A stretch of 60,297 nucleotides of DNA, filler included, from a candidate division TA06 bacterium SM23_40 (GCA_001303705.1; 7 parts of 7 records of this genome joined end to end with filler, not necessarily neighbours in it); one strand, 5' to 3'; positions 6,766 through 50,964 are shown, counted from the first letter of the whole stretch. The notes: generated by a model from the sequence alone, not told the origin. Program-made: numbers and translations.

Positions 6766-6767
6766 CG

Positions 6768-13348: not shown

Positions 13349-13351
13349 CGG

Positions 13352-27293: not shown

Positions 27294-27762
27294 TTCGCCC
27301 GGAACCGGACCCACTGCCCGCCAACGTCGACGTGCTTCAGGTCGAGTCGGACCACCTTGGTGCCGCGGAGCCCGGTCGAGTAGACCGCATGCAGAAGTGC
27401 GCGATCCCCGAGCCCCGTCGCCGTCCGGATTCGCGGCTTCTCGAGCATGCGCTCGACCTCCTTGACGCTCGGCACCATCGGGAGGCGTCCCTGTCTGTGC
27501 GGGGCTCTCACGACCTCGGTAGGATCGCACACCGCCTCATCGCCGAGAGCTTGCGGGTGCTCGCCGTCGTGCCGGCCTGCCGGAGAGACCCGAGGAACCC
27601 CACCACATCGTGCCGCTCGGCGCGGACGGGCCCCGTGCTATGGGCCTCGAGATACCTGAAGTATTGTCTCAGGTCGCCCCCGTATGCCCTGACCGTATTG
27701 TCGCTTAGATCGTCCTGAAGCCGCAGGTGCGCCTCGAAGCGCTCCAGCAGATCGAGCTCCAT
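27294..27762 (-). pseudogene. XerC/XerD-like tyrosine recombinase, degenerate (deletion/frameshift ~27533); 3'-truncated
   Basis: LSDNTVRAYGGDLRQY...RKLSAMRR in one frame, then DPT...LPMVPSVKEVERMLEKP...GLGDRALLHAVYSTGLR in another; several normally conserved residues are substituted. Confidence 0.75.
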
Positions 27763-27919
27763 GAACACACCTCCCCGCCGACCGTTGGGTACAGAAAGAC
27801 ATGCCTCACCCTTGATCAGCCCGTGGCGAGGTATGTCCGGAGACATCATCCGATGGGCGCTCACCAGGCGAGGCAGATTCCCGGCACCCCCTCCCCTATC
27901 GCAGCGACTGCCCGTGCCG

Positions 27920-29775
27920 CTAAGGCTCCACGACTGTGAACTTAAACCCGTCCTGATCGAAGACGTTACCGGGCATCCCCACCTTCCAAGCCAGTTCCCA
28001 CGTGCCGAGAGGGCACATGTCGCGTACCTGATACTCTCGAACGTACTGCCAGCTGTAATGTCGATGTATGATCCCATAGCCGGGTCCCTCGAGCGGATTC
28101 CCGGGCCATGGCTCGCCATCAGGTAGAGTCAGTTTCACAATGCCTCTACACGGCTGCGGCTCATCGTTGCAGTTGACCAATGTGTAGAGAACATGCAGGC
28201 TATCACCCAGTAGGAGAGAGAGCGTCTCAGGTGTCACATACGTGACAAGACTCTTCGACTGATCGAAGAAGAAGGCACCCATATCGCTGCGTGTACCGCC
28301 AGGATCGAGCGAGTCCGGATGCCCAGAATCGATGCAGGGTGAGCCCCACAACAGACGATAGTCCCGCCACTCCGACTTCACGAACCTCGGATCAGCGTCG
28401 ATGTTGCCCTCGTCCCACTGCAACATGCCTCCCGGCCCGACATACACTGCTGCCGAGCCTCCCTCGACATCGGAGTAGCTAACAGTCAGCGAACATGACG
28501 CAGCCAAGTAGATTTCCGGTCCAGAATCCCCGCTGTCCCCCCAGAGGACCAAGTTGATGACGGTTGGCGAGGATTCATCTTCACAGAAGATCCCACCAGC
28601 ACACTCCCCGGCTGTATTCCCCGTGATAGTATTGGCTTCGGTCGCTGGAGATGATCGAAGGCAATAGACTCCTCCGCCGTTCTCTCCAGCCGTATTCCCA
28701 GCAACTGCGTTGAGCTCGATCGGCGTAGAGGATCCGAGGGCGCAGAAGATTCCCCCGCCGGCGACGTCCGCGGTATCCTCTATGATGGTGTCGTCTACGA
28801 CCGGCCCTGAACAGTCCAACCGGAACGTTATGCCCCCTCCCTTGTAGGTACTCGCATTTCCAGTGATCGTGTTTCCAGAGATCGGCGGGGAGGAGTGATA
28901 GCTGTAGATCCCGCCTCCATAAGTGTTGGCCGTGTTGTCTGTGATTGTGTTGTCTTTCAGAGGTGGGCACGAGGTGTTCCAGCATGCGACTCCTCCCCCG
29001 CGCTCGCCGGCAACGTTCTCAGTGATTGTGTTGCCCTGGATCTGCGGAGAGCCCCCGTTGTAGCAGTCGATTCCGCCGCCGTCCTCTTCAGCCGTGTTCC
29101 CGGTGATGGTGTTGTCAACGATTTGCCCATAACAAGTGTACCAGAACTGTGTACCCCCTCCCCTGGAGCTGGTTGTATTCTCGGTGATAGCGTTGTGCGA
29201 GATCGTCGGCTAGCAGTAGAAGTACCAATAGATGCCACCACCACCGCGAAAGTCGGCGTGATTCCCCGTGATCGTGTTGCCTCGGATGGTTGGCGAGGAA
29301 GCGTACCGGCCGGCGATGCCGCCGCCGACATTCGCCGTATTCCCTGTGATCACATTGCCCTCTATGATGGGAGAAGAACCGCTGCAGAATATCCCACCAC
29401 CGTATCTATCCCAATTCGTGAGGTACGAATACCCATTTCTGATCGTGAATCCATGCAGCACCCAGGTCGAGTGCTCGCCACTATGGAAATAGAACCCTCG
29501 GTGAGGATCTCCCGCACTCCCTTCACAATCGATAATGGTCACACCGGGCCCCTCTTCAGACATGACTGTTATGGCCCTTCCCCGAAATCGATGTCACGGT
29601 TCCCGTCACCCGTGTAGGTGCCATTGGCGACTAGCACCGTATCGCCCTCCAAGGCAGCGTTGATCCCGGCCTGAATCGTCGGCTAGTCGTCCGGCACGCG
29701 GAGAACCGTGGCCCAGGCGCTTCCGCACGCAACGACAGTCAAGGAGACACCCAGCACTACCATCACTACTCTCAC
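27920..29775 (-). pseudogene. Beta-helix array gene 10 (type-B C-terminal domain), multiply disrupted
   Basis: GTG 29775 signal peptide then VLRVPDD*PTIQAG (TAG 29683-29685); second TAG at 29210-29212; several frameshifts; C-terminal part intact in ORF 27920-28819. Confidence 0.8.
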
Positions 29776-29873
29776 GTTCGCTCCCCCCTTCGCTCTATTG
29801 CCCCGAATCCTGCTCTTTCCTCAGGGCCCGCCCGTGCTCGCAGGGATGACCGAGCAGCTGTGATCGCGATTGA

Positions 29874-32828
29874 TCACTTCTTCACTGGCAGCACCACCGT
29901 GAACTTGAAGCCGTCCTGGTCGAAGACGTTTCCGGGATGACCCACCATAGTCCTGAAGCCCCAGGTCCCGAGCAGACACTGGAGAGGCACCGTATACGAC
30001 CTCACGGCCTGAAAGTAGGAATCAGGCTTCATCTCGAGGTAGTGCGGCCCTTCGAGCGGGTTCCCGGGCCACGGCTGGCCGTTGGGCCGCCTGAGGAGAG
30101 CGATCCACCAGGTCGGCTGGGGCTCGTCATGGCAGTTCATGATCGTGTATACGACACTCCCGGTCTGTCCCGGAGCTACCGTCAGTGCCTGGACTGAGGC
30201 ATAGATGACGAGGGTTTTCGACTGATCGAGGGAGTGTGCTCCCATGTCGCACCTGGTGCCATCAGGATCGAGCGAATCAGGATGGCCTGCGTCGATGCAT
30301 GGGGATGGCCAGAGCAGCCGATAATCATCGAAGCTCGGCCAGACGAACCAGGGACTGGTGTCGATGTTCCCTTCGCCCCACGCGAGGAAGCAGCCAGGAT
30401 CGACATGGACTGCCGATGAGCCGCCCTCCACGTCAGTGAAGCTGATGCCGATCGCTCCGCTCTGGCGGAGGACGACTTCAGGGCCAATTCCTGCGTTGTC
30501 ACCCCAGAGGATGGAATTGGTGACATTCAAATAGGAGTCGTGGCAGGAGATGGCACCGCCTTCCGCAGCCGTATTCCCGGTGATGGTGTTCCTCACGAGG
30601 GTAGCTGGGCTTTCGCCCCAGCAGGAGATGCCCCCTCCGTAGGTGCCGGCATTCTCGCCGATCGTATTGCCCACTATCATCGGAGCGCAATACCCCAAGC
30701 ACGAAATGCCGCCGCCGTATGTGGCTTCATTCTCGGACACCGTATTGCTGATCACGATGCCATCGCTGTCTTCCCAGAAAGCGATACCCCCACCCCAGAC
30801 GGCATGGTTGTCGGTGATCATGTTCTCCACAATGATCGGGAAAGATTCCTCCTCAGCGGCTATCCCACCGCCGTCGATCTCCGCAGTGTTCTCCCGGATG
30901 ATATTCCCGGCAATCGTGGGTGAAGAACCGACGCAGTGAATCGCGCCGCCGCACGTCAGGGGCCATCCCCCCGTCACATACCCATTCTGAATCGTGAACC
31001 CGCGCACGACCGCGGTGGCCTCCTCCCCACTATAGAATCGAAACCCGCGATGGGGATCGAGCGAGCTCCCCTGACAGTCGATGATGGTCACCTCCGGGCC
31101 GTTCTCCGACATGACAACGATCGCCTTACCACCGAAGTCGATATCCCGGTTCCCGTAACCGGTGTACAGACCATCGGCGACTAGCACCGTATCTCCGGCC
31201 GCCGCCGAGTCGACCCCTGCCTGAATAGTAGGACACTCAGGGCTCGGCACGTGCCAGGTCCTCGGTACCATGGTGCCGATTGCCTCGAGGGCCTGAATCC
31301 GCCCCGCTCCATAGTCGTTGTCCTTCCCTGCCGGACCTCTGTCGAGCGCTGTCATCTCGATTATCGAATCGATCTCTGGAGGCGTGAGAGCCGAGTTGCA
31401 GGAGAGCAACAAGGCGATTAGCCCGGAATTGTGCGGAGCTGCCATGGATGTGCCGCTCCAGGTTTCGCCGCTGTATCCTCCTCCCATGATCGTGGAGTTG
31501 ATATTCACTCCCGGTGCGCAGATATCGGGATCGATCAGACCCATGCCCGGAGCGTATGGATAGTCATACCAGGGTGGAACCGACTGCCAACTGACCGGTC
31601 CGTTGGAGCTGAAGTACGCGTAGTCGTCATTGTAGTAACCGGTCGCTCCCACCGTCATCATCGAGTTGAGGCCGCCCTCGAGCGTCTGGCCGGGATGGAG
31701 CCAGGGAGGTGGCACGTCGCCGGGCGTCGTAATCACGTCCGGAGGCCAATAGGAGGGGCGCCCGCCGCCGCCAGAGAACGACAGTATGACATCTGCAGCC
31801 AGGGCATAGCTGCAGACATCCCGCCATGCCGCCCGGTCAGGAAGATGAATGAGGTGGTACCAACCGATCGACCCATGCAGGATATCCGCCCCCATGTCGA
31901 CCGCGTACTCGATCGCCTCCCAGACATTTGCCTCTTCGCCCCATCCCACCTCATCCAACACGCGAATCGCCATCAGGTGAGCCTCTGGTGCAACTCCCGT
32001 CAGCACGCCGCCTGTCCCATCCCCTGCTACTGTGCCGGAGACATGTGTGCCATGCCCGTTCTCATCGATCGGATCGGATGTGTGCGCATCGAAATTGAAC
32101 CCGTAGTAGTCGTCGATGTACCCATTCTCATCGTCGTCAATTCCGTTGTTCGGTATCTCCCCGAGATTCGTCCACATGTTGCCGGAAAGATCACTGTGGT
32201 AGTACCAGATTCCGGTGTCGATGATCGCAACGAGAACGCCCTGACCTCTGTACCCGAGTTCCCACACATCGTCAGCTCCGATCCACTGCACACCCCACGC
32301 CGTGTCCGACTGATGGGAGCGCGGAGCAAACGGCTCGATAGAATCAACTGATTCAGGTCTCTCCTGGAGGCCGGTCAAAGCGTACCCACGCGTGTTGTAC
32401 ATGATCGTCTCCACCTCAGGCAGCGCGGCAATCTCCCTCACCAGTGAGGACTGAGCGAGTAGACGGACCACATTGACTGCATGCAGATATCGGATGTCTC
32501 GAGCGCGTCCCAACGCGGCAGCCTCCTGCACGAGCGTGCGCAGCCGCGACTGGCTTTCTCTCGCGAAGGCCGTCGCCTCCTCCCGAATCACACGCCTTCC
32601 CTCTGTCTTGGGGAGACCAGTCGCTAGAGCGTGCAGGCCTTCGTAGTCGATTCTCTCCCTCATGATCACGCTGATCGAGATATGCCCATCATCGGCTGCC
32701 GCCTTCACCGTTTCCTGCAATGCGGGATCTGTTCTGCCCGCATATACCACGCCCCATAAGCCCGCGACCATCACCAGCGCGAGACACAGCACCGCGCACC
32801 ACATCCATCCGTCTTCTCTTCTGCACAT
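29874..32828 (-). CDS. Beta-helix array gene 9: S8 subtilase fused to beta-helix and type-B C-terminal domain
   Basis: Signal peptide; catalytic triad IIDTG, HGTHVSG, SGTSMA; then WHVPSPECPTIQAG and GGGI repeats; GGAGG RBS before ATG 32828. Confidence 0.88.
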   Translation of the reverse strand: MCRREDGWMWCAVLCLALVMVAGLWGVVYAGRTDPALQETVKAAADDGHISISVIMRERIDYEGLHALATGLPKTEGRRVIREEATAFARESQSRLRTLVQEAAALGRARDIRYLHAVNVVRLLAQSSLVREIAALPEVETIMYNTRGYALTGLQERPESVDSIEPFAPRSHQSDTAWGVQWIGADDVWELGYRGQGVLVAIIDTGIWYYHSDLSGNMWTNLGEIPNNGIDDDENGYIDDYYGFNFDAHTSDPIDENGHGTHVSGTVAGDGTGGVLTGVAPEAHLMAIRVLDEVGWGEEANVWEAIEYAVDMGADILHGSIGWYHLIHLPDRAAWRDVCSYALAADVILSFSGGGGRPSYWPPDVITTPGDVPPPWLHPGQTLEGGLNSMMTVGATGYYNDDYAYFSSNGPVSWQSVPPWYDYPYAPGMGLIDPDICAPGVNINSTIMGGGYSGETWSGTSMAAPHNSGLIALLLSCNSALTPPEIDSIIEMTALDRGPAGKDNDYGAGRIQALEAIGTMVPRTWHVPSPECPTIQAGVDSAAAGDTVLVADGLYTGYGNRDIDFGGKAIVVMSENGPEVTIIDCQGSSLDPHRGFRFYSGEEATAVVRGFTIQNGYVTGGWPLTCGGAIHCVGSSPTIAGNIIRENTAEIDGGGIAAEEESFPIIVENMITDNHAVWGGGIAFWEDSDGIVISNTVSENEATYGGGISCLGYCAPMIVGNTIGENAGTYGGGISCWGESPATLVRNTITGNTAAEGGAISCHDSYLNVTNSILWGDNAGIGPEVVLRQSGAIGISFTDVEGGSSAVHVDPGCFLAWGEGNIDTSPWFVWPSFDDYRLLWPSPCIDAGHPDSLDPDGTRCDMGAHSLDQSKTLVIYASVQALTVAPGQTGSVVYTIMNCHDEPQPTWWIALLRRPNGQPWPGNPLEGPHYLEMKPDSYFQAVRSYTVPLQCLLGTWGFRTMVGHPGNVFDQDGFKFTVVLPVKK

Positions 32829-32886
32829 CGCTTCCTCCCTCGTCCGTTCCCTCCAGATCCCCAATGCGGTTCTTCCTCGTCCTCGT

Positions 32887-34444
32887 CTACTCCACCGGCG
32901 GGGGCACGATCGCGAAACCGAAACTGTCCTCGTCGTAGACCATCGAGGGTGGCATCCCGATCCGGGACCCATACCCATACGCGCCGAGAGGCGCAGCCCC
33001 AGGCACCATGTGATGCAGGTGACGCTGCACCGTAGTATTCGCCGGCAGGGTGTATTGGTCGGGCCCGATGATAGTGAACGGGCTGCCATTCGGCAGGGTC
33101 GCCTCTGTCTGAACCCAGAACGGCTCCGCCTGTGGCCACCGGTTGATTGCCGTGTAGGTCACGCCTAGCATTGCTCCCGGGGACACTTCAGTCGTATCGG
33201 GTGTCAAGTACAGCGTCATGTAATCCTCCTGGTCGAAGAACTCCGCCCCCATGTCCCTCCGCGTCCCATCCGCGTCCAACGAGTCTGGATGCCCGGCGTC
33301 GATGCATGGCGACCCCCACAGCAATCGGTAGTCTCCCTTCTCGGCCAGCACAAACATCGGATCTGCGTCAATATTGCCCTCACCCGACCAGCCTCCTTCG
33401 ACGTCGCAATAGGCAACGACTAGTAATGTATCTCCATCGACTTCGATCTGGGATGGCGAGTCGCCCCAGAGGATGGAGTTAATGATAGACAGGGAACACG
33501 AGTAGCAATGAATCGCGCCGCCCTCCCCGAGGGTGACGGCGTTTCTGGTCATGGTATTTCCGTTGATCGTAAGAGAAGACGCATGACATAATATCCCGCC
33601 CCCGATCCGAGCCTCATTCCCGCTGATCGTGTTGCCACCGATCAGAGAAGAAGATCCCCACGGAAAGTACATTCCACCGCCCGCGAGCTCCCCTACATTC
33701 CCGCTGATCGTGTTTCCCACGATCACTGGACCGGACTCGTAGCAGTAGATTCCACCGCCATAATAGGCCTCATTTCCACTGATCCTGTTCCATGCGAGTG
33801 TTGGAAAGGACGCGTACAGGCAACATATTCCGCCGCCGCCACCGCGAGCCGAACCACTAGCACTAGCCGTATTCCCAGCAATCGTATTCCCCACGATCAT
33901 AGGAGAGGCATAGTCGCAGTAGACTCCGCCGCCCGCTCCCCGTAATCATGTTGCCTTCGATCCTGGGAGAAGACGAGTAGCAGTGGATTCCGCCGCCCCA
34001 CCCACTCAAGCCACCCGACGCCGTATTCCTGGTGATCCAGTTGCCTGCGATCGTGGGAGAGGCGTAGTCGCATCGCATTCCGCCGCCGCGGTAGGCAAAT
34101 CCGTTCTGAACCGTAAATCCCCGGAGCACCGAACTCAAGTCCTCCCCGCTATGGAAGAAGAATCCTCGGTGCGGATCCAGTGAATCTCCCTCACAATCGA
34201 CAACTGTCACCTCAGGCCCATTCTCGGAGATCACAACAATCGCCTTGCCCAGAAAGTCGATGTCCCGGTTCCCGTCACCCGTATACGTCCCATCAGCCAC
34301 CAGCACCGTGTCACCCTCAACTGCGGCATCGATCCCTGCCTGGATAGTCGGATACTCGCCCGGCACGTGGAGAACCGTTGCCGAGACTCCCGCACATAGC
34401 AAGAGAGTCAGGGCAGCACCCAGCAAAGTCGTGAACCGTGTCAT
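32887..34444 (-). pseudogene. Beta-helix array gene 8 (type-A C-terminal domain), single frameshift ~33935
   Basis: N-half in ORF 33863-34489 (MTRFTTLLG...VLHVPGEYPTIQAG), C-half in ORF 32887-33900; the break falls within a GGG repeat. Confidence 0.8.
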
Positions 34445-34513
34445 GATATTTCTCTCCGTTGGACCCCAGCGGTGATCACCATGCCCCAATGTGATTCCAG
34501 CCAGTTGTCTCGA

Positions 34514-36073: not shown

Positions 36074-36132
36074 TTGCTCTCCCCCTCTCTATGCTCCCTT
36101 TGTATCCTCCCGCGCTCGTCTCATGATGCATC

Positions 36133-38900: not shown

Positions 38901-38936
38901 GGTATTCCTTTCATTCGAAAGACAGCCGCCATCACT

Positions 38937-38951
38937 ATGCTATCATAGCAT
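38937..38951. promoter_or_regulatory. Intergenic palindrome ATGCTAT-C-ATAGCAT
   Basis: Perfect 7-1-7 inverted repeat; the homologous copy at 40467-40481 shows a compensatory change. Confidence 0.5.
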
Positions 38952-38969
38952 TTCGCCGGTAGCGCCCTG

Positions 38970-40430: not shown

Positions 40431-40466
40431 GGTATTCCTCTCATTCAAAAGACAGCCGCTAACACT

Positions 40467-40481
40467 ATGCTGTCACAGCAT
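40467..40481. promoter_or_regulatory. Intergenic palindrome ATGCTGT-C-ACAGCAT
   Basis: Same position relative to the start codon as 38937-38951; paired A>G/T>C substitution keeps the symmetry. Confidence 0.5.
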
Positions 40482-40499
40482 TCCGCCGGAACAGCCCTG

Positions 40500-42053
40500 C
40501 TAGGGCCCTACCACTATGAATGCGAAGCTGTCCTCATCATAGAGTGTCGATGGCGGCACCCCGATCCGGGACCCATACCCATACAGACCGAGAGGCGCAG
40601 CCCCAGGCACTATGTGATTCAGGTGACGCTGCTCGGTGTGATTCGCCGGCAGCGCATAGTGAGCCGGACCCATCACAGGGAACGGATTGCCATTCGGGAG
40701 GGTTGCCTCGGTGAGCACCCAGAACGGCTCAGGTTGTGCCCAGCGGTTAATGGCAGTGTAGGTGACTCCAAGGACACCTCCCCGCGTGACCTCTAGCGTA
40801 TCTGGTGTAAGGTAGAGTGTCAGGTAGTCGTCCTGGTCGAAGAAGTGCGCACCCATGTCGCTGCGTGTGCCGTCGGGATCTGTGTAGTCGGGATCTCCCG
40901 AATCGACGCACGGTGATCCCCAGAGAAGGCGGTAGTCGTTCTTATCGGCCAGCAGGAACAGGGGATCTGCTTCGATATTCCCCGCCCCTTGCCAGCCGCC
41001 CTCCACGTCACAGTAGGTCACATCGATCGAACTCGTCTCGTCCACGTAGATCTCCTGATCGGTGGCGGCGCTGTCGGCCCAGAGCACCGTATTGAAGACG
41101 ATCGGCGAACAGGCCCAATAGCAGCAGATCCCCCCGCCGAGGGCCGCCCTGTTGGCCGTAACGGTATTCGCCTTGATGACCGGCATCGCGTGATAGTAGC
41201 AATAGATGCCGCCGCCCTCGTCGGCTGTATTCTCGACAATGGTGTTCCTCTCGGCTATTGGTGACGAGTCAGAGCAGTACATCCCCCCACCGGTGAACGC
41301 CGCAGTATTGCCCGAGATCGTGTTCAACCTGATCACACCCGAACAGGTGTAGTCATAGAAGACCCCGCCGCCATAGAAGTCAGCCGTATTCCCGGTGATC
41401 GTATTCCCCTCGATAGTCGGCGCCGAGAGGTGGTACACACAGAGCCCTCCGCCGCTGTGATGTGCTGTGTTCGCAGTGATGGTGTTTCCTTGGATCGTCG
41501 GCCAGGAGTCGATACAGCAGATCCCGCTGCCACTGTACGTCGATGTGTTCCCGGCGACTATGTTCGCCCTGATGATCGCTGCCGAGGCACCATCACAGAA
41601 GATGCCCCCTCCATTGTAGGCTGCTGAGTTACCGGTGATGATATTCCCCTCAATGCTCGGTGATGACCCGAGACAGTAGATGCCGCCCCCATCGTACACC
41701 TCTATGTGTCCATTCGTGATCGTCAACCCCTGCACCACTGAGCTCGCGTCCTCGCCGCTGTGGAAGACGAAGCCACGGTGTGGGTCTGCGGCGCTCCCCT
41801 CACAGTCGATGATCGTCACCTCCGGACCGTTCTCCGACATCACGACCATGTTGACGCCACCGAAGTCGAGGTCCCGGTTTCCATCACCGCTGTAGGTGCC
41901 GTCGGCAACCAGGACCGTATCGTTGTCCACTGCGGCGTTGATACCCGCCTGAATGGTCGGATACTCGCCCGGGACGCGGAGAACTGTCGCCCAAACAGAC
42001 AAGGCATATCCCAGAACGAGGCTTCCGCACAGCAATAGTATCATCCTCCTCAT
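40500..42053 (-). CDS. Beta-helix array gene 4, intact (type-A)
   Basis: GGAGGAGG RBS, MRRMILLLCG signal, same architecture as neighbours. Confidence 0.88.
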   Translation of the reverse strand: MRRMILLLCGSLVLGYALSVWATVLRVPGEYPTIQAGINAAVDNDTVLVADGTYSGDGNRDLDFGGVNMVVMSENGPEVTIIDCEGSAADPHRGFVFHSGEDASSVVQGLTITNGHIEVYDGGGIYCLGSSPSIEGNIITGNSAAYNGGGIFCDGASAAIIRANIVAGNTSTYSGSGICCIDSWPTIQGNTITANTAHHSGGGLCVYHLSAPTIEGNTITGNTADFYGGGVFYDYTCSGVIRLNTISGNTAAFTGGGMYCSDSSPIAERNTIVENTADEGGGIYCYYHAMPVIKANTVTANRAALGGGICCYWACSPIVFNTVLWADSAATDQEIYVDETSSIDVTYCDVEGGWQGAGNIEADPLFLLADKNDYRLLWGSPCVDSGDPDYTDPDGTRSDMGAHFFDQDDYLTLYLTPDTLEVTRGGVLGVTYTAINRWAQPEPFWVLTEATLPNGNPFPVMGPAHYALPANHTEQRHLNHIVPGAAPLGLYGYGSRIGVPPSTLYDEDSFAFIVVGP

Positions 42054-42119
42054 CGTCCCTCCTCCCCCTGTCATAGTCTTCTCTGACCGCGAAAAGGAGA
42101 ACACATCGAAGCACCTTCC

Positions 42120-43592
42120 CTACTCAAACGGCGGCGGCACGATCGCGAACTCAAAGCAACCCTCGGCCCAGATCGACCCGGGATGGGCCCCAGTCCGAAC
42201 GCACAATCTGTAGGGGCTCCCATACGGCGCAACCTCCGGTATGTGCACGCGCTGCCGCACACCATACACACCGTAGTTGCTACCGACCACAAACTCGACA
42301 GGCCCGATGACTGGATTGCCCGCATAAGGGTTGCCGCTCAGAAGGTATCCATCGGCCCAGGCCTCAAAGATCAGAGTGCTATCTGTGAAGTTGATAAGAT
42401 CGACGGCGAACCGCAGGTCCTGTCCGGGGGGGATGTGAGTGGTGTCTGGTATCACCTGGACCGCCAGAAAGCTTGCATAGTGGAATCCCATATCCGTGCG
42501 CCAGACATCCCAGACGCCGTCCGTTCTCGTTGTCCCTCTGGGAATGACCGATTCCGGATTCCCGGTGTCGACACACGGGCTCTCTTCCGGCTGACCAGCG
42601 ACTGTCTGGCTCAGGTACCAGTCCCAGAGCGGACCGGAGACAAATAGCGGATTGGCATCGATGTTGCCTTCGCCTGGCCATCCCCCCTGTACATCGGAAT
42701 ACGTCACTGTGACATCGCTGTATATCCCCAGTGCGATCTCCGAGGGGACATCTGCCCACAGGATGCAGTTGGCGATCGTGGGGGTGGAGGAGGCCGTGAA
42801 AAAGGCGCCGCCGCCATCCTCGATGACGGTATTACGCGTAATCGTATTACCCACTATCTCCGGAGACGACATGAAGCAGAATAGACCCCCGCCGTACTCA
42901 GCCGTGTTGTTCGCAATCAGGTTGTCGACGATAGTCGGAGAAGAAGAGGAGCAATAGATGCCCCCTCCATACACATCAACCGCATTTGCCACAATGACAT
43001 TTCCTTCGATGGTCGCGGAGCAGTCGAGTCGGCAGAAGATCGCACCGCCTCGATTAGCGGTATTCTGGGCAATAGTGTTATGCTTGATGCTCGGCGATAC
43101 GCTACCCCTGCAATAGATGCCTCCGCCTAGACCTTCCTCACCGACTGCCGCATTCTCCACCATTCTGTTGCGTTCGATTGTTGGCGCCGCGTGATCACAG
43201 AAGACCGCACCACCTCCGAAGTCCTCTGGCGGGGGCCTGTAGGCATACCCGTTCGTTATCGTGAATCCTCGCAGGACGGAGCTAGATCCCTCCGCGCTGT
43301 GGAAATGGAATCCGCGGTGAGGATCGAGCTGGCTTGCCTGGCAATCGATGATGACGGCTTCCGGCCCGTTCTCGGACGTCACCAGGATCGCTTTACCATT
43401 GAAGTCAACGTCGCGGTTCCCCTCACCGGTGTATGTGCCGTCCGCCACGAGCACCGTATCTCCGTCCACAGCGGAATAAATCCCGGCCTGAATCGTCGGA
43501 TACTCGCTCGGCACGCGTAGAACTGCCGCCAACGCGTTCTCCTGCAGCACGAGCATCTGAACCGCACACAACATCACGACCAGTCTTCTCAT
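42120..43592 (-). CDS. Beta-helix array gene 3, intact (type-C C-terminal domain)
   Basis: MRRLVVMLC signal; WYLSQTVAGQ...GTTRTD...DMGFHY linker; IPDT...NFTDSTL...APYG domain. Confidence 0.86.
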   Translation of the reverse strand: MRRLVVMLCAVQMLVLQENALAAVLRVPSEYPTIQAGIYSAVDGDTVLVADGTYTGEGNRDVDFNGKAILVTSENGPEAVIIDCQASQLDPHRGFHFHSAEGSSSVLRGFTITNGYAYRPPPEDFGGGAVFCDHAAPTIERNRMVENAAVGEEGLGGGIYCRGSVSPSIKHNTIAQNTANRGGAIFCRLDCSATIEGNVIVANAVDVYGGGIYCSSSSPTIVDNLIANNTAEYGGGLFCFMSSPEIVGNTITRNTVIEDGGGAFFTASSTPTIANCILWADVPSEIALGIYSDVTVTYSDVQGGWPGEGNIDANPLFVSGPLWDWYLSQTVAGQPEESPCVDTGNPESVIPRGTTRTDGVWDVWRTDMGFHYASFLAVQVIPDTTHIPPGQDLRFAVDLINFTDSTLIFEAWADGYLLSGNPYAGNPVIGPVEFVVGSNYGVYGVRQRVHIPEVAPYGSPYRLCVRTGAHPGSIWAEGCFEFAIVPPPFE

Positions 43593-43746
43593 CGTCTCGT
43601 TCTGCTTGTTACGCCCTTGTTCCGCCCGATCGGGGTGTACTACCACTGTGCAGGTGCGTACGCCAGGACGCAAAGCACAAGTGCTCCATTACGAGTAGGG
43701 ACGACATAATGCTTTGGAACCCGGATCCGAGAGCCCCGCCCATTGC

Positions 43747-45747
43747 CTATTCTCGAGACGGCGGGAGGATGTCGAAGACGAAACAGGCCTCCGCCGAGAC
43801 TGAGTCGGCATGGACCCCGGCCCGAACGCACAGTGCGTAGGGCCCCCCGTAAGGCGCCTGTACCGGTATACGCACCGACCGCCGCACACCGTTGAAGCCG
43901 CAACCACCGCCCAAGCTGAGTTCCACAACACCCAGCACGGGATTAGCTGCGTACGGATTGCTGGTGGGCAGATAGGCGTCAGCCCAGGCGTCGAATGTCA
44001 GTGTGCTATCTGTCACGTTCACCATGTCGACAGTGAACCACAGTTCCTCGCCGCGATGCACCTGGTGTGTATCGGGAATCGCGCGAATGGATAGCACACT
44101 CGGGTAATGGTAGCCCATATCCACAGGCCAGAAGTCCCATCTATGATCGGTCCTCGTAGTTCCCTGCGGCAGAGCCGAAGTGGGATCTCCTGTATCGACG
44201 CAAGGGCTTTGCTGTGACTGTCCCGCGGCGATCTGGCTCAGAAAGTAGTCGCTCCCAAAGCCCACCACGAAGAGAGGGTCCGCGTCGATATTTCCTTCAC
44301 CAGGCCAGCCTCCCTGCACATCAGAGTAGGTCACTGCAACCGAGCCGCCGTACCCTACTTCGATTTCCGAAGGACTGTCTGCCCATACGATTGAATTGGC
44401 CAGCGTCACGGACGAGCCACTACCGGCGCAGTAGATCGCCCCACCCTCCTCAGCTGCATTCCCGGTCAGGGTGGTGTACCTTACAAGCGCAGAGGACCCG
44501 CTGTAGCAGCAGATCCCACCGCCCCGGTACGCCCCCACGTTCAGAGCCACAGTGTTGTCGTCGAGTATTACCGAAGAGGAGAGCTCGCAGTACATCCCTC
44601 CACCACGATCCCCGGCATGGTTCTCGATTATCGTGTTCCAGATAACGGTCGGGGAAGCGTAAGAACGGCACATGATCCCACCGCCACAATTGTAGGCTAC
44701 GTTCTCCGCAATCGCATTATGGGACACAGTCGGATAGGAGTATTCACGACATTCGATTGCAGCTCCCCAGGAGGCAGCGTTTCCCGTCATCGTGTTGCCG
44801 TGAATAAGCGGAGAAGAATGGTCATGGCAATCGATACCAGCCCCGCGATAGCCGTTATTCCCGACGATGGTGTTGCGCTCAATGGTCGGCGACGAGCTTA
44901 TGCAGCAAATCCCCGCGCCGCTACTGTCCGCCCAATTGCTCGTGATTGCATTAGCCATGATCGGTGCTGAAGACTGCATAGTGCAGTAGATCCCGCCGCC
45001 GTTGCCGGCCGAGTTATCCGAGATCGTGTTCCCTTCGATCGTCGGGGAAGATTCCGAGCAGTGCACGCCGCCGCCATCTCCGCTGGCCGTATTCGCTGTG
45101 ATGGCGTTCTGCTGAATGAGGGGAGAAGAGTGGTTACAGCTGTAGATCCCTCCACCGTGGTTCAAGTGTGCTATGTTCCAGGTAATCGTGTTGTTTCTGA
45201 TCGTTGGAGAGCCGTCGTCGCAGTACACTCCCCCACCCCAGCCCGCCCCATTCGCTACAATCATGTTGCCATTGATGACGGGAGACGCCTCGTTACAGCA
45301 ATAGACCGCTCCGCCGCGAGTAGCCGTATTCCCCGTAAACGTGTTGCCGACAATAGTCGGCGAAGCCTGATCACAGCGAACGGCGCCTCCCTCGGGAACC
45401 CATCCATTAATGATCTGGAACCCGTGGAGCACGGAGGCTGAGGTCTCCCCACTACGAAAGTGGAACCCGCGATGCCAATCCGAGCCACTACCCTGGCAGT
45501 CGATGGCGGTCGCCTGTGGCCCGTTTTGCGAGGTCACGATAATAGACTTGCCGAGAAAGTCGATATCCCTGTTTCCCTCGCCGGTGTAGATCCCGTCAGC
45601 CACCAACACGGTGTCCCCGGTGCCTGCCGCATAGATTCCGGCCTGAACGGTTGGATATTCACTCGGTACACGTAGAATGGTGGCCGACACACTGAAACAG
45701 AGCCGAAGGGTCATGCATGTACCCACCAGTATCACGGCTCTCTTCAC
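43747..45747 (-). CDS. Beta-helix array gene 2, intact, longest repeat core (type-C)
   Basis: GTG 45747 overlapping the upstream stop (GTGA); ~13 GGxIxC repeats; YFLSQIAAGQ...GTTRTD linker. Confidence 0.86.
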   Translation of the reverse strand: MKRAVILVGTCMTLRLCFSVSATILRVPSEYPTVQAGIYAAGTGDTVLVADGIYTGEGNRDIDFLGKSIIVTSQNGPQATAIDCQGSGSDWHRGFHFRSGETSASVLHGFQIINGWVPEGGAVRCDQASPTIVGNTFTGNTATRGGAVYCCNEASPVINGNMIVANGAGWGGGVYCDDGSPTIRNNTITWNIAHLNHGGGIYSCNHSSPLIQQNAITANTASGDGGGVHCSESSPTIEGNTISDNSAGNGGGIYCTMQSSAPIMANAITSNWADSSGAGICCISSSPTIERNTIVGNNGYRGAGIDCHDHSSPLIHGNTMTGNAASWGAAIECREYSYPTVSHNAIAENVAYNCGGGIMCRSYASPTVIWNTIIENHAGDRGGGMYCELSSSVILDDNTVALNVGAYRGGGICCYSGSSALVRYTTLTGNAAEEGGAIYCAGSGSSVTLANSIVWADSPSEIEVGYGGSVAVTYSDVQGGWPGEGNIDADPLFVVGFGSDYFLSQIAAGQSQQSPCVDTGDPTSALPQGTTRTDHRWDFWPVDMGYHYPSVLSIRAIPDTHQVHRGEELWFTVDMVNVTDSTLTFDAWADAYLPTSNPYAANPVLGVVELSLGGGCGFNGVRRSVRIPVQAPYGGPYALCVRAGVHADSVSAEACFVFDILPPSRE

Positions 45748-47624
45748 TCTCGTCTCCCTTCGACGCGAAACCTCGAGGGCTCGTCCCACGAGCCTCTGTG
45801 CTCAACCTGAACTCCTCGCCGGGATGTTGGTGTGACGATACAGGTGAACTCGTCCTGGTCGTACACTATTGGTGGCACCCCTATGCCGGACCGATACCTG
45901 TAGGTGCCCAGAGGGGCCCCCAGTGGCACGTAATGACGAATGTGACACAGCGAGATCGTATTACCAGGCAATACGTGTTGGATCGGCCCGCCCACACTCA
46001 GGGTATCCCCGTTGGGCAGGATCGCCTGTGAAGCCAACCAGAACGACTCCGGGTGCGCCCACCGATTTATTACGGTATACGTGATACCGAGGAAGGTACC
46101 ACGGGCAACTGCTCTGCGGTGTCGCGTCAAGTACAATGTAAGGTAGTCGGTCTGGTCAAAGAAGTGACCTCCTATGTCGCTTCGCGTCATGTCTGGATCG
46201 AGCGAGTCCGGGTGCCCTGAGTCGATGCACGGTGAGTGCCACAGGAGGCGGTAGTCCCCCTTCGCGGTAAGCACGAACATCGGGTCATAGTCTCTATTCC
46301 CCTCTCCCCACATCACGGTGCAGCCTGGGGCAACGTATGTCGAAAAGACACGATTCTCCGTGTTGCAGTAGCTGATGCTCGTTGAACTCTGCTCCCGTAG
46401 GCAGAGTTCCTTGCCCAGACATCCGCTGTCGCCGCGAAGGATGCTGTTCATGATAGTCAACGAAGTAGACCAGCAGTAGATACCCCCGCCCTCCCCGCTG
46501 GCGAGGTTCTTTGTAATCGTATTGCTGTACAGACTCCCAGAGGCGCCTCGGAAGCCGATTCCACCACCTGTCCCGTAAGAGCTGTTCCCGGTGATCGTGT
46601 TACCGCGGATAGTCGCGGAGGAACTGCGACAACGAATCCCACCGCCGTCCTCCGTAGCACTGTTACCCGAGATGGTATTGTACAGAATAGTCGAGGAAGA
46701 ACTCTGAGAACAGACAATCCCACCGCCACTCCCGTTGTAGACCATGTTTCGTATGATCGTGTTATCCGTCACCGTCGCCGACGATACTTCACAACAGATC
46801 CCGCCGCCACGCTTATCTGCACCATTCTCGAGTATGGTATTTCCGGCGATGACCGCAGAGCCGTACCAGCAGTGGATCCCGCCGCCATAGTCGGCCACAT
46901 TCCATTGGACGAAGTTATCCTGGATCACCGCGGAAGACTGATAGATGCAAATCGCGCCACCATGGCCGCCATAAGGCCCAGGGGCTGCATTGCCACTGAA
47001 CGTGTTCCCAGCGATGACAGGGCACGACTGCAATTCGGAGAAGAGACCGCCGCCGTCGTAGGCGCTGTTCTCCGTTAGTGTGTTGCCAACAACAGCGGGA
47101 GATGAGTGATTGCAGTATATCGCCCCCCCGTAATTGGCGACATTACAGGTGATCACGTTATCAGCGATTCTGGCAGAACAATTCCACTCGCAAGCGATTC
47201 CGCCTCCGTTGTCGCCGGCGTTGTCGCGGATGATGTTATCCATGATCGTCGGCGAGGAGCCCCAGCAATAGATCCCCGTGTCATGAGCATTGGTGATAGT
47301 GAAGCCACGCACCACGGAGCTTGAGTCCTCGCCGCTGTGGAAGTAGAGCCCCCGGCAGGCGATGTCTCTACAGTCGATTACTGTGGCCTCCGGACCGCTC
47401 TCGGACATGAGAACGATTGCCTTCCCACCGAAATCGATATCGTAGTTCCCGGGACCGAAGTACGTGCCGCTCGCCACCAGTACCGTGTCTCCTTCCATCG
47501 CGGCATTGACTCCCGCCTGGATGGTTGGATAAACCTGCGGCACACGGATGACTGTTGCAGGAGCGGCGGAAACGAGGCAGGCCGCGGCAACACCTATCGC
47601 CGCGCCTAGTCTGATGCCGTTCAT
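45744..47624 (-). CDS. Beta-helix array gene 1, intact, promoter-proximal (type-A)
   Basis: MNGIRLGAAIG signal, GGGAG RBS, VIRVPQVYPTIQAG, GGGIxC repeats, INRWAHPESFW domain. Confidence 0.88.
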   Translation of the reverse strand: MNGIRLGAAIGVAAACLVSAAPATVIRVPQVYPTIQAGVNAAMEGDTVLVASGTYFGPGNYDIDFGGKAIVLMSESGPEATVIDCRDIACRGLYFHSGEDSSSVVRGFTITNAHDTGIYCWGSSPTIMDNIIRDNAGDNGGGIACEWNCSARIADNVITCNVANYGGAIYCNHSSPAVVGNTLTENSAYDGGGLFSELQSCPVIAGNTFSGNAAPGPYGGHGGAICIYQSSAVIQDNFVQWNVADYGGGIHCWYGSAVIAGNTILENGADKRGGGICCEVSSATVTDNTIIRNMVYNGSGGGIVCSQSSSSTILYNTISGNSATEDGGGIRCRSSSATIRGNTITGNSSYGTGGGIGFRGASGSLYSNTITKNLASGEGGGIYCWSTSLTIMNSILRGDSGCLGKELCLREQSSTSISYCNTENRVFSTYVAPGCTVMWGEGNRDYDPMFVLTAKGDYRLLWHSPCIDSGHPDSLDPDMTRSDIGGHFFDQTDYLTLYLTRHRRAVARGTFLGITYTVINRWAHPESFWLASQAILPNGDTLSVGGPIQHVLPGNTISLCHIRHYVPLGAPLGTYRYRSGIGVPPIVYDQDEFTCIVTPTSRRGVQVEHRGSWDEPSRFRVEGRRE

Positions 47625-47664
47625 CTCGCTGACTCCCTTCCGGGTCCCGGAGGCTTCCCCGAAA

Positions 47665-47702
47665 TAGCAAAAGAGCGACCCCTGACGCTCGGTGTCGCTC
47701 CC
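47665..47702 (-). terminator. Terminator-like hairpin inside the 5' leader of the array (attenuator)
   Basis: GAGCGAC-14 nt-GTCGCTC followed by TTTTGCTATTT on minus, ~45 nt before ATG 47624. Confidence 0.6.
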
Positions 47703-47806
47703 GAAGAGCCTACTTAAGCGGTTTCATCCCACGCCTATTCCCGAGGCCACCGGGCGTTGTCTGCCGGTCACTGCCGGCAGACATCTCGGGAATCTCGTAT
47801 CTATCT
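47703..47806 (-). ncRNA. Candidate structured cis-regulatory leader RNA (family not recognised)
   Basis: 9-bp outer stem ATTCCCGAG/CTCGGGAAT, 10-bp inner hairpin TGTCTGCCGG/CCGGCAGACA, crossing ACGCC/GGCGT pairing; lies between promoter and terminator. Confidence 0.5.
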
Positions 47807-47812
47807 CGTGTG

Positions 47813-47841
47813 ATTATACACCCTTTCGGCAGGCTGGTCAA
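47813..47841 (-). promoter_or_regulatory. Sigma70 promoter of the beta-helix array
   Basis: TTGACC-17 bp-TATAAT on the minus strand. Confidence 0.75.
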
Positions 47842-47890
47842 GGCAAATCCACAGCACTGCCCCCACCTCACCCGGATAGGCGCCCAAACC

Positions 47891-50948: not shown

Positions 50949-50964
50949 GTTCGAGGATCATACG

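What the first reader, a model, noticed from the sequence alone, without database searches (positions are those of the whole stretch)
27294..47841. ~20-kb single-promoter array of ten paralogous secreted beta-helix genes: candidate surface-protein diversification system
Seen: ten co-oriented paralogs, each built as signal peptide + conserved VPxxYPTIQAG...ENGPEVTIIDC cap + variable-length Cys-laddered GG[AG]IxC beta-helix + SPC[IV]DxG...DMG linker + ~120-aa C-terminal domain. A near-consensus sigma70 promoter and structured leader lie at one end, a decayed Xer-type recombinase at the other. Known: GG[AG]I/N-repeat beta-helices characterise chlamydial Pmp adhesins, and Pmp loci diversify by tandem duplication and frameshifting. 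Here there is no autotransporter barrel. Inference: this is a non-autotransporter, Pmp-like repertoire locus evolving by recombination between conserved ends, serving adhesion, polymer binding, or phage/predator evasion.
Basis: partly seen in the sequence, partly recalled or inferred. Interest (0 to 1): 0.8.

Follow-up and report, generated by a model that had tools for sequence, protein, structure and literature searches.

The report
Tandem cluster of secreted beta-helix genes
A sediment bacterium carries eleven neighbouring copies of a gene for a secreted, rod-shaped protein; this looks like an ordinary, slowly evolving gene family, not a switchable variation system.

Summary
The ten co-oriented paralogs are real. 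The window joins several contigs, and the finding is one whole contig, 27294-47890. Its PhzF protein is identical to one that NCBI lists under candidate division TA06.

Each gene is a complete unit with its own start and Sec signal peptide. It encodes an N-cap, 5-13 PMP-type coils with a Cys ladder, a linker and a ~115-aa terminal domain.

Corrections:
- An 11th paralog with its own promoter-like site lies just beyond the contig end.
- g6 and g10 are true pseudogenes.
- The g8 frameshift is a 26-nt omission in this assembly.
- g9 is fused to an S8 peptidase, and a PhzF gene interrupts the array.

The genes are mosaics. Junction blocks are conserved and the cap and C-domain trees disagree. The exchanges are old (dS 0.45 or more; longest exact repeat 46 nt). 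The locus is 99.9% identical, without gaps, in three other assemblies.

The family has thousands of members and dozens of copies per related genome.

The terminal domain has no Pfam or NCBIfam model. It also ends secreted peptidases and beta-propeller proteins, so it is probably a shared anchor or address module.

Verdict: an ordinary birth-and-death cluster, not a diversification machine.

The parts
45744..47624 (-). g1: intact paralog, 626 aa, 10 coils, class-A C-domain with a ~25-aa tail extension that overlaps the g2 start region
   Evidence: ORF; Pfam Beta_helix, NosD and Chlam_PMP (49.8 bits); signal peptide; coil count
43747..45789 (-). g2: intact paralog (likely start GTG at 45747), 13 coils, class-C C-domain
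42120..43673 (-). g3: intact paralog (likely start ATG at 43592), 5 motif coils, class-C C-domain
40500..42104 (-). g4: intact paralog (likely start 42053), class-A C-domain, 87% identical to that of g5
38970..40448 (-). g5: intact paralog (likely start 40430). A mosaic: signal peptide and cap closest to g6 and g8, pre-linker closest to g6, g9 and g10, C-domain closest to g0 and g4
37141..38900 (-). g6: pseudogene with one in-frame TGA (38453-38451) and one frameshift near 38295-38277; class-B C-domain
   Evidence: The lesions are also present in L101 (0 gaps) and in contigs of runs X1, X2 and X5
36133..36927 (-). PhzF-family isomerase gene that interrupts the array
   Evidence: PF02567, E 1e-64; 100% identical to P0242, which NCBI names under candidate division TA06
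34514..36073 (-). g7: intact paralog, 519 aa, class-A C-domain; its cap is sister to that of g6
32887..34489 (-). g8: read as two ORFs in the window, but intact in the population. The window lacks 26 nt behind 33936
   Evidence: frame break; table 4 (the insertion is present in 4 of 4 runs). My hand translation says the 26 nt restore the frame
29874..32828 (-). g9: S8 subtilase with its own signal peptide, fused N-terminally to cap + helix + class-B C-domain
   Evidence: Peptidase_S8 at residues 282-596 and Beta_helix at 693-858 of the 1071-aa ORF
27920..29775 (-). g10: pseudogene with two in-frame TAG codons and one frameshift; class-B C-domain
   Evidence: contigs of X1, X2 and X6 cover the lesions without indels
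27294..27762 (-). Xer-type tyrosine recombinase gene: SAM-like domain, one frame break near 27508-27530, start of the catalytic domain, then cut off by the contig end
   Evidence: PF02899; sequence; PF00589 positions 6-56, 21.9 bits, under the cut-off
47813..47841 (-). sigma-70-like promoter site TTGACC-17-TATAAT upstream of g1
   Evidence: 11 of 12 matches; a consensus match only
47625..47812 (-). g1 leader with a 10-bp hairpin (47758-47783) and a terminator-like hairpin plus T run (47673-47700); homologous to the g0 leader
38470..39437 (-). junction block (g5 C-domain + spacer + g6 N-terminus), repeated at 40000-40967 (g4 C-domain + spacer + g5 N-terminus)
   Evidence: 80.7% identity over 972 nt at offset 1530; the exact repeats of 32-46 nt lie here

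Best explanation
This is one local cluster of a very large family of exported right-handed beta-helix proteins in an uncultivated sediment bacterium. Its nearest named relative is candidate division TA06. The cluster has at least eleven genes; ten are in the window and one lies just upstream.

Shown:
- Each gene is a full translation unit with a Sec signal peptide.
- The mature protein has a conserved N-cap and a rod of 5-13 coils of about 25-27 residues (GGGIxC...SPxIxxNxIxxNxA).
- An end cap that resembles choice-of-anchor Q below the curated threshold follows, and then a ~115-aa terminal domain.
- In the public protein collection the same terminal domain also ends secreted peptidases and beta-propeller proteins. 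It occurs in an all-or-none pattern, with 18-105 matches per genome where present.

Inferred: the proteins cross the inner membrane by Sec. The terminal FnIII/Ig-like domain then acts as a common address or anchor. It either directs passage across the outer membrane or holds the protein on the cell surface or matrix. The helix rods serve as binding or adhesive surfaces for particles or polymers.

Shown for the evolution:
- The cluster grew by tandem duplication through unequal crossing-over, with breakpoints inside the repetitive helix core.
- This gives chimeric genes with new coil numbers and new pairings of cap and C-domain.
- Copies are lost by stop codons and frameshifts (g6, g10).
- Both end modules are under purifying selection.

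This is slow birth-and-death evolution, not a programmed switch.
For: Family and architecture:
- Pfam and NCBIfam results, signal peptides and coil and Cys counts.

Size of the family:
- 6396 of 7999 scored candidates matched at E<=1e-3.
- 506 of 593 pattern matches in species-representative genomes encode a relative.
- Matches per genome were 43, 77, 226, 12 and 16 in G001-G005, and 12, 33, 4 and 10 in G016, G019, G008 and G011.
- Arrays occur elsewhere. G016 has a 3044-nt tandem duplicate at 98.3% identity.

Mosaic history:
- Junction blocks, identity tables, incongruent trees with AU tests and sliding windows.

Age and constraint:
- dS is 0.45 or more and dN/dS is 0.04-0.25. The longest exact repeat is 46 nt.

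Stability:
- L099-L101 are 99.93-99.96% identical with 0 gaps.
- Four runs from four studies cover all 30 bins.

Terminal domain:
- The profile of the ten C-domains finds 2318 cluster representatives at E<=1e-3.
- Of the best 150, the domain ends within 5 aa of the C-terminus in 104, within 6-30 aa in 25, and lies inside in 21.
- Of the 149 scanned by Pfam, 70 are beta-helix proteins, 24 are peptidases without a helix, 17 are propellers, 9 are other and 29 have no family.
- 84 of 112 full-length hits have a signal-peptide-like N-terminus by a crude rule, and the tails end in a conserved YDEDxFxFxVVE-like strand.
- The domain is present in 6 of 81 sampled genomes of one phylum, with 18-45 matches each, and in none of the other 75.
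- Homologs in other lineages carry a T9SS tail at the same place. L023 and L006 are above a cut-off; L019 is just under.
- The T9SS translocon SprA is present in G001-G004.
Against: - No direct evidence of location, secretion route or binding.
- No RNA data.
- The window's own genome is not held, so its secretion systems could not be checked.
- In 4 of 149 scanned proteins the domain is internal and a canonical Por_Secre_tail follows (P0190, P0147, P0206, P0238). In 21 of 150 it is internal. This fits a plain Ig-like spacer or binding domain as well.
- A profile-profile comparison with 18 canonical T9SS tails of G001-G003 shows no relation (probability 0.4%).
- Canonical tails coexist in the same genomes: 54, 93 and 30 matches in G001-G003.
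- The AU tests used groups that I chose after seeing the data.
- The high cap identity of g6 and g7 (86%) comes with saturated dS (1.75). It reflects constraint, not recent exchange.
Confidence: 0.6

Rival explanations
1. One reading: a dedicated surface-protein diversification system. One expressed locus recombines actively between conserved ends, perhaps helped by the Xer recombinase, to vary the surface and evade phage or predators.
For: - Conserved ends flank a variable core, and the genes are mosaics.
- A recombinase gene is on the contig.
- Strain contigs show small clusters of substitutions: X5 at 37580-37654 and 37942-38035, X6 at 39056-39069. Each rests on one contig at depth about 4-5.
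Against: - All copies are complete genes with their own starts and signal peptides.
- The longest exact repeat is 46 nt. dS is 0.45 or more, with purifying selection.
- No repeat tracts and no sound inverted repeats at the promoter.
- The locus is identical in order, with 0 gaps, in three other assemblies.
- All joints seen in the laid contigs have sides of only 20-33 nt, which the tool itself warns against.
- A second promoter-bearing paralog lies upstream.
- The Xer gene sits 20 kb from the promoter, and its state is unknown.
Confidence: 0.05
2. The proteins are secreted or periplasmic enzymes or enzyme helpers, such as a pectate-lyase-fold polysaccharide lyase or hydrolase, or a NosD-like maturation factor. 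The terminal domain is a substrate- or matrix-binding module like a CBM or the RbmA FnIII domains, not an address signal. The cluster would be a repertoire for degrading varied polymers.
For: - NosD, Beta_helix and DUF1565 models match.
- The terminal domain sits on many hydrolases, chiefly peptidases.
- The domain stretch of P0147 hits PF22021 RbmA-like_FnIII at 44.9 bits.
- The C-domain profile's best PDB hits are RbmA at E 0.028-0.036, which is not significant.
- The Atlas model of g5 aligns to CARDB-type and DUF1616 sandwiches at TM 0.73-0.79.
- g9 joins the module to a subtilase.
- In 4 of 149 proteins a true T9SS tail follows the domain.
Against: - The NosD subfamily model scores 17-39 bits against a cut-off of 300.
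- The coils are short and very regular, with no long loops that could form a cleft (sequence). From general knowledge, that is more typical of adhesins and passenger domains.
- No sequence relative has a solved structure at E<=1e-3.
- The extreme C-terminal position in 104 of 150 hits and the all-or-none genome pattern are as expected for an address module. They do not exclude a binding module.
Confidence: 0.25
3. Assembly artefact: the array, or its mosaic pattern, comes from chimeric assembly of dispersed paralogs or of several strains.
For: - The window comes from a fragmented assembly with contigs of 6-20 kb.
- It holds at least one local error, the 26-nt omission in g8. The Xer gene may hold a similar short gap.
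Against: - Copies are only 65-85% identical in DNA, with exact repeats of 46 nt or less.
- Three other assemblies reproduce g1 to g7 without a gap.
- Depth is flat, about 16 and 22 in X1 and X2. The exception is the bin with the shared 31-mers.
- Contigs of 4-6 kb from X1 and X2 bridge g10-g9, g7-g6 and g3-g1 (table 8).
Confidence: 0.02

Closest known systems
Chlamydial polymorphic membrane proteins (Pmp; type V autotransporters)
   Same: - Coils match the Pfam Chlam_PMP repeat above its cut-off in 6 of 10 genes.
- Both are multi-copy, partly tandem families that include broken copies. The Pmp side of this comparison is recalled, not tested.
   Different: - No autotransporter barrel and no Pmp middle domain were found.
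- The FxxN half of the Pmp signature (recalled) is nearly absent: 3 FxxN against 82 GG[AG][IVLM] in 11 genes.
- The C-terminus is an FnIII/Ig-like domain.
- The host is a free-living sediment lineage.
- No poly-G tracts that could give phase variation.
T9SS cargo proteins with a PMP-type beta-helix and a Por_Secre_tail or FlgD_ig C-terminal sorting domain
   Same: - Same N-cap, helix and SPC-linker. Homologs L023 and L006 end in a T9SS tail above a Pfam cut-off, and L019 just below it, at the place where the window's proteins have their terminal domain.
- Both have a Sec signal peptide.
- The terminal domain is shared with C25, M14 and S8 peptidases, as T9SS tails are. The T9SS side of this point is recalled.
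   Different: - The terminal domain is longer, about 115 aa against about 80.
- It lacks the PNPFNP start seen in the relatives' tails.
- It shows no profile similarity to them.
- It has no Pfam or NCBIfam model.
NosD and generic PbH1 right-handed parallel beta-helix proteins
   Same: Pfam NosD, Beta_helix and DUF1565 match, as does the N-terminal xVPxxYPTIQxAIDAAxxGDTVLV cap.
   Different: The TIGR04247 NosD subfamily model scores 17-39 bits against a cut-off of 300. There are no nos genes on the contig.
RbmA-like FnIII and CARDB-type Ig-like domains (for the terminal domain)
   Same: - Beta-sandwich of similar size. The Atlas structural neighbours include CARDB and DUF1616 at TM 0.73-0.79.
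- The domain of one family member, P0147, hits PF22021.
   Different: None of the ten window domains hits any Pfam or NCBIfam model at E<=5, apart from one chance-level hit in each library. The PDB hits are not significant.
Cassette-based antigenic variation loci (pilE/pilS, vlsE, msp2; recalled from general knowledge)
   Same: Tandem, co-oriented, related coding segments with conserved ends and a variable middle.
   Different: Here every copy has its own start and signal peptide. Identity between copies is low, at least two promoter-like sites exist, and no recent conversion tracts are seen.

Membership tests
Chlamydial Pmp / type Va autotransporter | PMP repeat (Pfam PF02415) | tested here: met
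   Above the 20.6-bit cut-off in g1, g2, g3, g4, g6 and g7, i.e. 6 of 10 genes. g10 scores 16.8 bits. g5, g8 and g9 are not listed at E<=0.01.
Chlamydial Pmp / type Va autotransporter | C-terminal autotransporter beta-barrel | tested here: not met
   No autotransporter family among the Pfam hits at E<=0.01 for any of the 15 translated pieces. The C-terminal ~115 aa have no Pfam or NCBIfam hit.
Chlamydial Pmp / type Va autotransporter | alternating GGA(I/L/V) and FxxN motifs (definition recalled) | tested here: not met
   82 GG[AG][IVLM] against 3 FxxN in 11 genes. The second motif is Nx[IVLMA]xxN instead.
T9SS cargo | C-terminal sorting domain matching Por_Secre_tail/TIGR04183 or the type B model | tested here: not met
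   No such hit for the ten domains at E<=5. hhalign against 18 canonical tails of G001-G003 gives probability 0.4%.
T9SS cargo | N-terminal Sec signal peptide | tested here: met
   Read from the sequence for 9 genes, and for the N-terminus of the g9 fusion. No predictor program was run.
T9SS cargo | T9SS machinery in the same genome | not testable with these tools
   No genome is held for the window. SprA is above its cut-off in the relatives G001-G004. The window has only a weak PorV/PorQ-like hit, 28.6 bits against a cut-off of 90, on another contig.
choice-of-anchor Q domain (NF041518) | score at or above the curated cut-off of 25 bits | tested here: not met
   7 of 10 linker segments match at E<=1 (best 3.1e-4). 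The two bit scores that were reported, 17.6 (g5 linker) and 19.3 (g8), are under the cut-off. This is a resemblance only.
NosD (TIGR04247) | score at or above the 300-bit cut-off; nos gene neighbourhood | tested here: not met
   Scores are 17-39 bits. The neighbours are paralogs, PhzF and Xer.
Cassette or gene-conversion antigenic variation system | one expression site plus promoterless, truncated silent copies with long near-identical flanks | tested here: not met
   All copies have their own start and signal peptide. The longest exact repeat is 46 nt. The best block is 80.7% identical.
Phase variation by repeat tracts or an invertible promoter | homopolymer or short tandem repeat in the 5' region; inverted repeats flanking the promoter together with a recombinase | tested here: not met
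   Only two 7-nt homopolymers, both inside genes, and no short tandem repeat of 5 or more units. Around the promoter there are only hairpins and one 17-nt pair at 82% complementarity, whose right arm lies inside g1.
Diversity-generating retroelement | reverse transcriptase plus a template/variable repeat pair | tested here: not met
   No reverse transcriptase among the Pfam hits of the contig's large ORFs. No long near-identical repeat pair. Small ORFs were not scanned.

The most novel reading that the evidence does not exclude
The ~115-aa terminal domain (ending in a YDEDxFxFxVVE-like strand) is an undescribed class of C-terminal sorting signal. It would mark dozens to about a hundred cargo proteins per genome for export across, or attachment to, the outer membrane in TA06-like and Glassbacteria-like lineages. 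The cargo would include beta-helix rods, gingipain-like C25 peptidases, M14 and S8 peptidases, and propellers. The route would be the T9SS with its own adaptor, or an unknown pathway. The array would then be the largest cargo family of that pathway.
Probability: 0.2. Interest if true: 0.65.

Novelty: new variant of a known kind. Interest (0 to 1): 0.35.

Why it matters
For the array itself, little changes. Tandem clusters of this beta-helix family are common in uncultivated sediment lineages. This one evolves in the ordinary way, by unequal crossing-over, chimeras and gene death.

Two by-products deserve a specialist's look.

1. The terminal domain is large and unmodelled: 2318 cluster representatives and no Pfam or NCBIfam model. 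It sits at the very end of many unrelated secreted proteins and is all-or-none across genomes. This is the pattern by which protein-sorting signals have been found before (recalled). If it is one, it would help predict the exported protein set of several candidate phyla that degrade detrital protein in sediments.

2. The leaders of g0 and g1 share a promoter, a 5' hairpin and a terminator-like hairpin. This hints at regulated read-through.

The case is also a caution: windows built from joined contigs make contig ends look like the ends of a locus.

Tried and rejected
- Own genome: none is held.
- Structure: the first fold job failed on the server. I therefore have no model of my own and ran no fold search. 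Fold statements rest on the Atlas answer alone.
- Expression: no RNA holder listed.
- Joints in the laid contigs: all have sides of 20-33 nt and were not used.
- Rfam: nothing at E<=1 beyond two chance-level hits on the contig, and nothing on the g0-g1 spacer.
- Atlas search by features: no usable hit for the g5 domain. For the g3 domain only unnamed clusters at 0.76-0.77.
- Idea that the PorV/PorQ-like DUF5723 ORF (50926-52305) is the partner of the terminal domain: found in 0 of the 6 domain-positive genomes and in 8 others. Rejected.
- Same idea for the lipoprotein-like gene upstream of g0: 0 of 6, and 14 weak hits elsewhere. Rejected.
- Terminal domain as a diverged T9SS tail: no profile similarity.
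- TGA recoding as the cause of the g6 stop: not pursued. It is a single TGA and a frameshift sits beside it.
- Literature. None of these searches found a description of this family, array or terminal domain:
  - TA06 + beta-helix: 0 papers.
  - Pmp + parallel beta-helix + paralogous + metagenome: 5 papers, none relevant by listing.
  - T9SS + C-terminal domain + Gemmatimonadetes: 2 papers.
  - Glassbacteria: 14 papers.
  - choice-of-anchor: 33 papers, 10 listed.
  - Chlam_PMP + T9SS: 0 papers.
  - candidate division TA06 + secretion: 2 papers.
  - Supplements were closed and may hold gene lists that I could not see.
Full report
WHAT THE REGION IS

The window is not one molecule. Six spacers of the form N44-TTAATTAATTAA-N44 cut it into seven contigs. 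The finding (27294-47841) is one whole contig, 27294-47890. No genome is held for the window.

The PhzF gene inside the array encodes a protein 100% identical to P0242, which NCBI lists under candidate division TA06. Words of the locus occur in 10 public runs of 9 studies, from marine sediment, estuary and seawater metagenomes. Six of these runs hold at least half of the words.

CHECK OF THE OBSERVATION

All large ORFs of the contig lie on the minus strand. tblastn with g5 against the whole window gives 17 segments, all within 27923-47576. The cap, linker and DMG motifs recur ten times.

Pfam finds Beta_helix, NosD and DUF1565. Chlam_PMP is above its cut-off in 6 of 10 genes. No autotransporter domain is found. 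NCBIfam adds only generic repeat models and sub-threshold hits.

Nine genes have their own start codon, mostly preceded by a purine-rich stretch. Each has a basic n-region, a hydrophobic core and an AxA-like site directly before TVLHVP.

The seven genes that are intact in the window carry 56 GG[AG][IVLM] motifs at a spacing of 25-27 residues. In 47 of these a Cys follows within two residues. The FxxN motif of Pmp proteins (recalled) is almost absent: 3 against 82 in eleven genes.

The observation needs these corrections:
- g9 is a fusion. An S8 subtilase with its own signal peptide is followed by cap, helix and C-domain.
- A PhzF gene separates g6 from g7.
- g10 has two in-frame TAG codons and one frameshift. 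g6 has one TGA and one frameshift. g8 shows one frame break.

INDEPENDENT ASSEMBLIES

I laid the contigs of four runs from four studies on 27900-47890.

- g8: all four runs carry 26 extra nucleotides behind 33936, exactly at the g8 break. By hand translation these restore the frame and complete a normal coil. g8 is therefore intact in the population, and the window has a local omission.
- g6 and g10: no insertion or deletion is reported at their lesions. X1, X2 and X5 cover the g6 lesions, and X1, X2 and X6 cover the g10 lesions.
- Depth is flat, about 16 in X1 and 22 in X2. The one exception is the bin 38572-39238, where 31-mers are shared with the neighbouring junction block.
- The joints listed have sides of only 20-33 nt, and I do not use them.

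Three metagenome loci (L099, L100, L101) match the window at 99.93-99.96% with 0 gaps over 2.4, 10.0 and 12.1 kb. The order g1 to g7 and the g6 lesions are thus reproduced.

THE ARRAY IS LONGER THAN THE CONTIG

Contigs of X1 and X2 run past 47890. After 653 nt they reach a stretch like the end of a class-A C-domain.

L100 shows the gene. g0 (L100:2936-4516) is an 11th paralog on the same strand, with a signal peptide, cap, helix and class-A C-domain. It ends 895 nt before the g1 start. A lipoprotein-like ORF and a flavodoxin-like gene lie upstream of it.

g0 has its own 11-of-12 promoter-like site (TTGACA-17-TAGAAT). Over L100:2500-5500, 4 such sites were found against 1.0 expected. Over the contig itself, 8 sites were found against 8.4 expected, and only the g1 site is strong.

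The two leaders are about 60% alike. They share a 5' hairpin and a terminator-like hairpin with a U run. In 10 of 37 predicted pairs both sides have changed. This rests on two sequences only, and Rfam has nothing.

g2 to g10 follow at short spacings. Co-transcription from the g1 site is possible but untested.

HOW THE COPIES RELATE

DNA identity between copies is 60-85% in the conserved ends. The longest exact repeat is 46 nt.

The best self-matches are not genes but junction blocks, each made of a C-domain, a spacer and the next gene's N-terminus. The block 38470-39437 matches 40000-40967 at 80.7% over 972 nt. The g7|g8 junction matches both at 71.7% over about 900 nt. This is what unequal crossing-over with breakpoints inside the repetitive core would leave behind.

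Caps are 57-86% identical at the protein level. C-domains fall into three classes: A (g1, g4, g5, g7, g8, and also g0), B (g6, g9, g10) and C (g2, g3). Identity between classes is 21-35%.

- The cap tree joins g6 with g7 (support 96/92). It rejects class B and class A as clades (p-AU 0.015 and 0.0085).
- The C-domain tree puts g6 in class B (95/95) and rejects g6+g7 (p 4e-7).
- The groups were named after I had seen the identity tables, so these tests are post hoc.
- g5 is a clear mosaic. Its signal peptide is closest to g6 (85%), its cap to g8 and g6 (90-92%), its pre-linker to g6, g9 and g10, and its C-domain to g0 and g4 (88-90%).

The events are old:
- dS is 0.45 for the g4-g5 C-domain and 0.83 to saturated for every other pair tested.
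- dN/dS is 0.04-0.25.
- The g6-g7 cap similarity comes with dS 1.75, so it reflects constraint rather than recent exchange.

No features of programmed variation were found. There is no homopolymer of 8 or more and no short tandem repeat. There are no sound inverted repeats around the promoter. No long near-identical repeat pair exists.

The Xer gene has a SAM-like domain, a frame break and the start of a catalytic domain, and then the contig ends. Since g8 shows that this assembly can drop short stretches, I cannot say that Xer is decayed.

THE WIDER FAMILY

- g5 finds 6396 proteins at E<=1e-3 among 7999 candidates scored. The named ones come from candidate division TA06, Latescibacteria and Glassbacteria, at 40-62% identity.
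- In species-representative genomes, 506 of 593 pattern matches encode a relative. The best are in a Glassbacteria MAG at 44-49%.
- Matches per genome vary widely: 43, 77, 226, 12 and 16 in G001-G005, and 12, 33, 4 and 10 in four more. Matches are not copy numbers.
- Tandem arrays recur. Two Poribacteria loci have seven caps each on one strand, and loci of a Gemmatimonadota MAG have six or seven.
- G016 has a 3044-nt tandem duplicate at 98.3% identity.

THE TERMINAL DOMAIN

None of the ten window domains hits any Pfam or NCBIfam model at E<=5, apart from one chance-level hit in each library.

A profile of the ten domains finds 2318 cluster representatives at E<=1e-3, 695 at 1e-10 and 45 at 1e-30. 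Among the best 150:
- The domain ends within 5 residues of the C-terminus in 104, within 6-30 residues in 25, and lies inside the protein in 21.
- Pfam scans of 149 of them (P0161 left out for its length) give 70 beta-helix proteins, 24 peptidases without a helix (C25, M14, S8, M4, M28, C1, C13, M23), 17 beta-propellers, 9 others and 29 without a family.
- 84 of 112 full-length hits look signal-peptide-bearing by a crude rule. The tails share a YDEDxFxFxVVE-like end.

Distribution across genomes is all-or-none:
- G001, G002 and G003 have 29, 45 and 105 matches. The WOR-3 MAG (G004) and the Poribacteria MAG (G005) have none.
- In a sample of 81 genomes of G001's phylum, 6 have 18-45 matches each and 75 have none.

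Homologous helix proteins in other lineages carry a T9SS tail at the same place. L023 and L006 are above a cut-off, and L019 is just under. SprA is present in G001-G004. One review passage says T9SS may occur in other FCB phyla, including Gemmatimonadetes (PMC11285876, introduction passage).

Against a sorting role:
- Canonical tails coexist in G001-G003, with 54, 93 and 30 matches.
- No profile similarity to those tails is seen.
- In 4 of 149 proteins a canonical tail follows an internal copy of the domain.

On the fold:
- The Atlas model of g5 (pTM 0.89) aligns to CARDB-type and DUF1616 sandwiches at TM 0.73-0.79.
- The domain of P0147 hits RbmA-like_FnIII at 44.9 bits.
- The best PDB sequence hits are RbmA at E about 0.03, which is not significant.
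- I could not fold it myself.

The linker before the domain resembles choice-of-anchor Q in 7 of 10 genes. Both bit scores that were reported are under the curated cut-off.

READING

The cluster is an ordinary birth-and-death tandem family of exported PMP-type beta-helix rods. No feature of a programmed diversification system is present.

The most likely mechanism, partly inferred, has three steps:
1. Sec export across the inner membrane.
2. A shared terminal FnIII/Ig-like module that addresses or anchors the protein at the outer membrane or in the matrix.
3. Helix rods that act as binding surfaces.

The main rival is an enzyme or enzyme helper with a binding module. The boldest reading still open is that the terminal domain is a new class of sorting signal. 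I put that at about 0.2.

Noticed in passing
window 6218-6317, 14637-14736, 20922-21021, 27194-27293, 47891-47990, 54097-54196: Spacers N44-TTAATTAATTAA-N44 show that the window is seven joined contigs. Neighbourhood across these points means nothing.
   Followed up: yes
L100:2730-3060 and L100:5184-5420 (the latter = window 47615-47851, minus strand): g0 and g1 have homologous upstream regions. Each has an 11-of-12 promoter-like site, a 5' hairpin and a terminator-like hairpin with a U run about 50 nt before the start. In 10 of 37 predicted pairs both sides have changed. This may be a leader attenuator. There is no Rfam match. The core motif occurs only in L099-L101 among 121 loci.
   Followed up: partly
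window 33936 (g8); possibly also 27508-27530 (Xer): The window lacks 26 nt that all four laid runs carry. The Xer gene has a similar short gap between its two domains, which may be the same kind of assembly omission.
   Followed up: partly
window 37580-37654 and 37942-38035 (run X5); 39056-39069 (run X6): Contigs of strain variants show tight clusters of substitutions in otherwise near-identical sequence. One has 11 changes in 75 nt, in the variable loop before the g6 linker. By eye they match none of the five other copies of repeat family D13. Each rests on one contig at depth about 4-5.
   Followed up: partly
window 45744-45820: g1 runs about 25 residues past the usual ...VVxP end of the terminal domain and overlaps the g2 start region, as if its stop codon had been lost.
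   Followed up: no
window 50926-52305 (another contig): An ORF with DUF5723 (E 8e-11) and a weak PorV/PorQ-family hit, 28.6 bits against a cut-off of 90. It sits next to a 718-aa ORF without a family and a CarboxypepD_reg protein. It does not co-occur with the terminal domain in 81 genomes.
   Followed up: yes
window 12329-13348 (contig 6318-14636): An ORF with a weak SU10 adaptor hit (30.2 bits, cut-off 27). The five other large ORFs of this contig that were scanned have no Pfam family. It may be a phage-derived contig in the bin.
   Followed up: no
window 22264-25347: A 1027-aa ORF that joins AMP-binding, phosphopantetheine-binding and acyltransferase domains. It lies next to two multi-pass membrane ORFs (24945-26009 and 26006-26644) that were not scanned against any family library.
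   Followed up: no
G005:C175:26734-34926 (Poribacteria MAG); L018, L050: Several cap-helix modules lie in one open frame of 3198 aa. In that lineage the 'array' is one giant protein rather than separate genes.
   Followed up: no
L122:4288-10074 (G016:C1): A 3044-nt tandem duplicate at 98.3% identity, each copy holding one family gene. This is a recent duplication in a related genome.
   Followed up: partly
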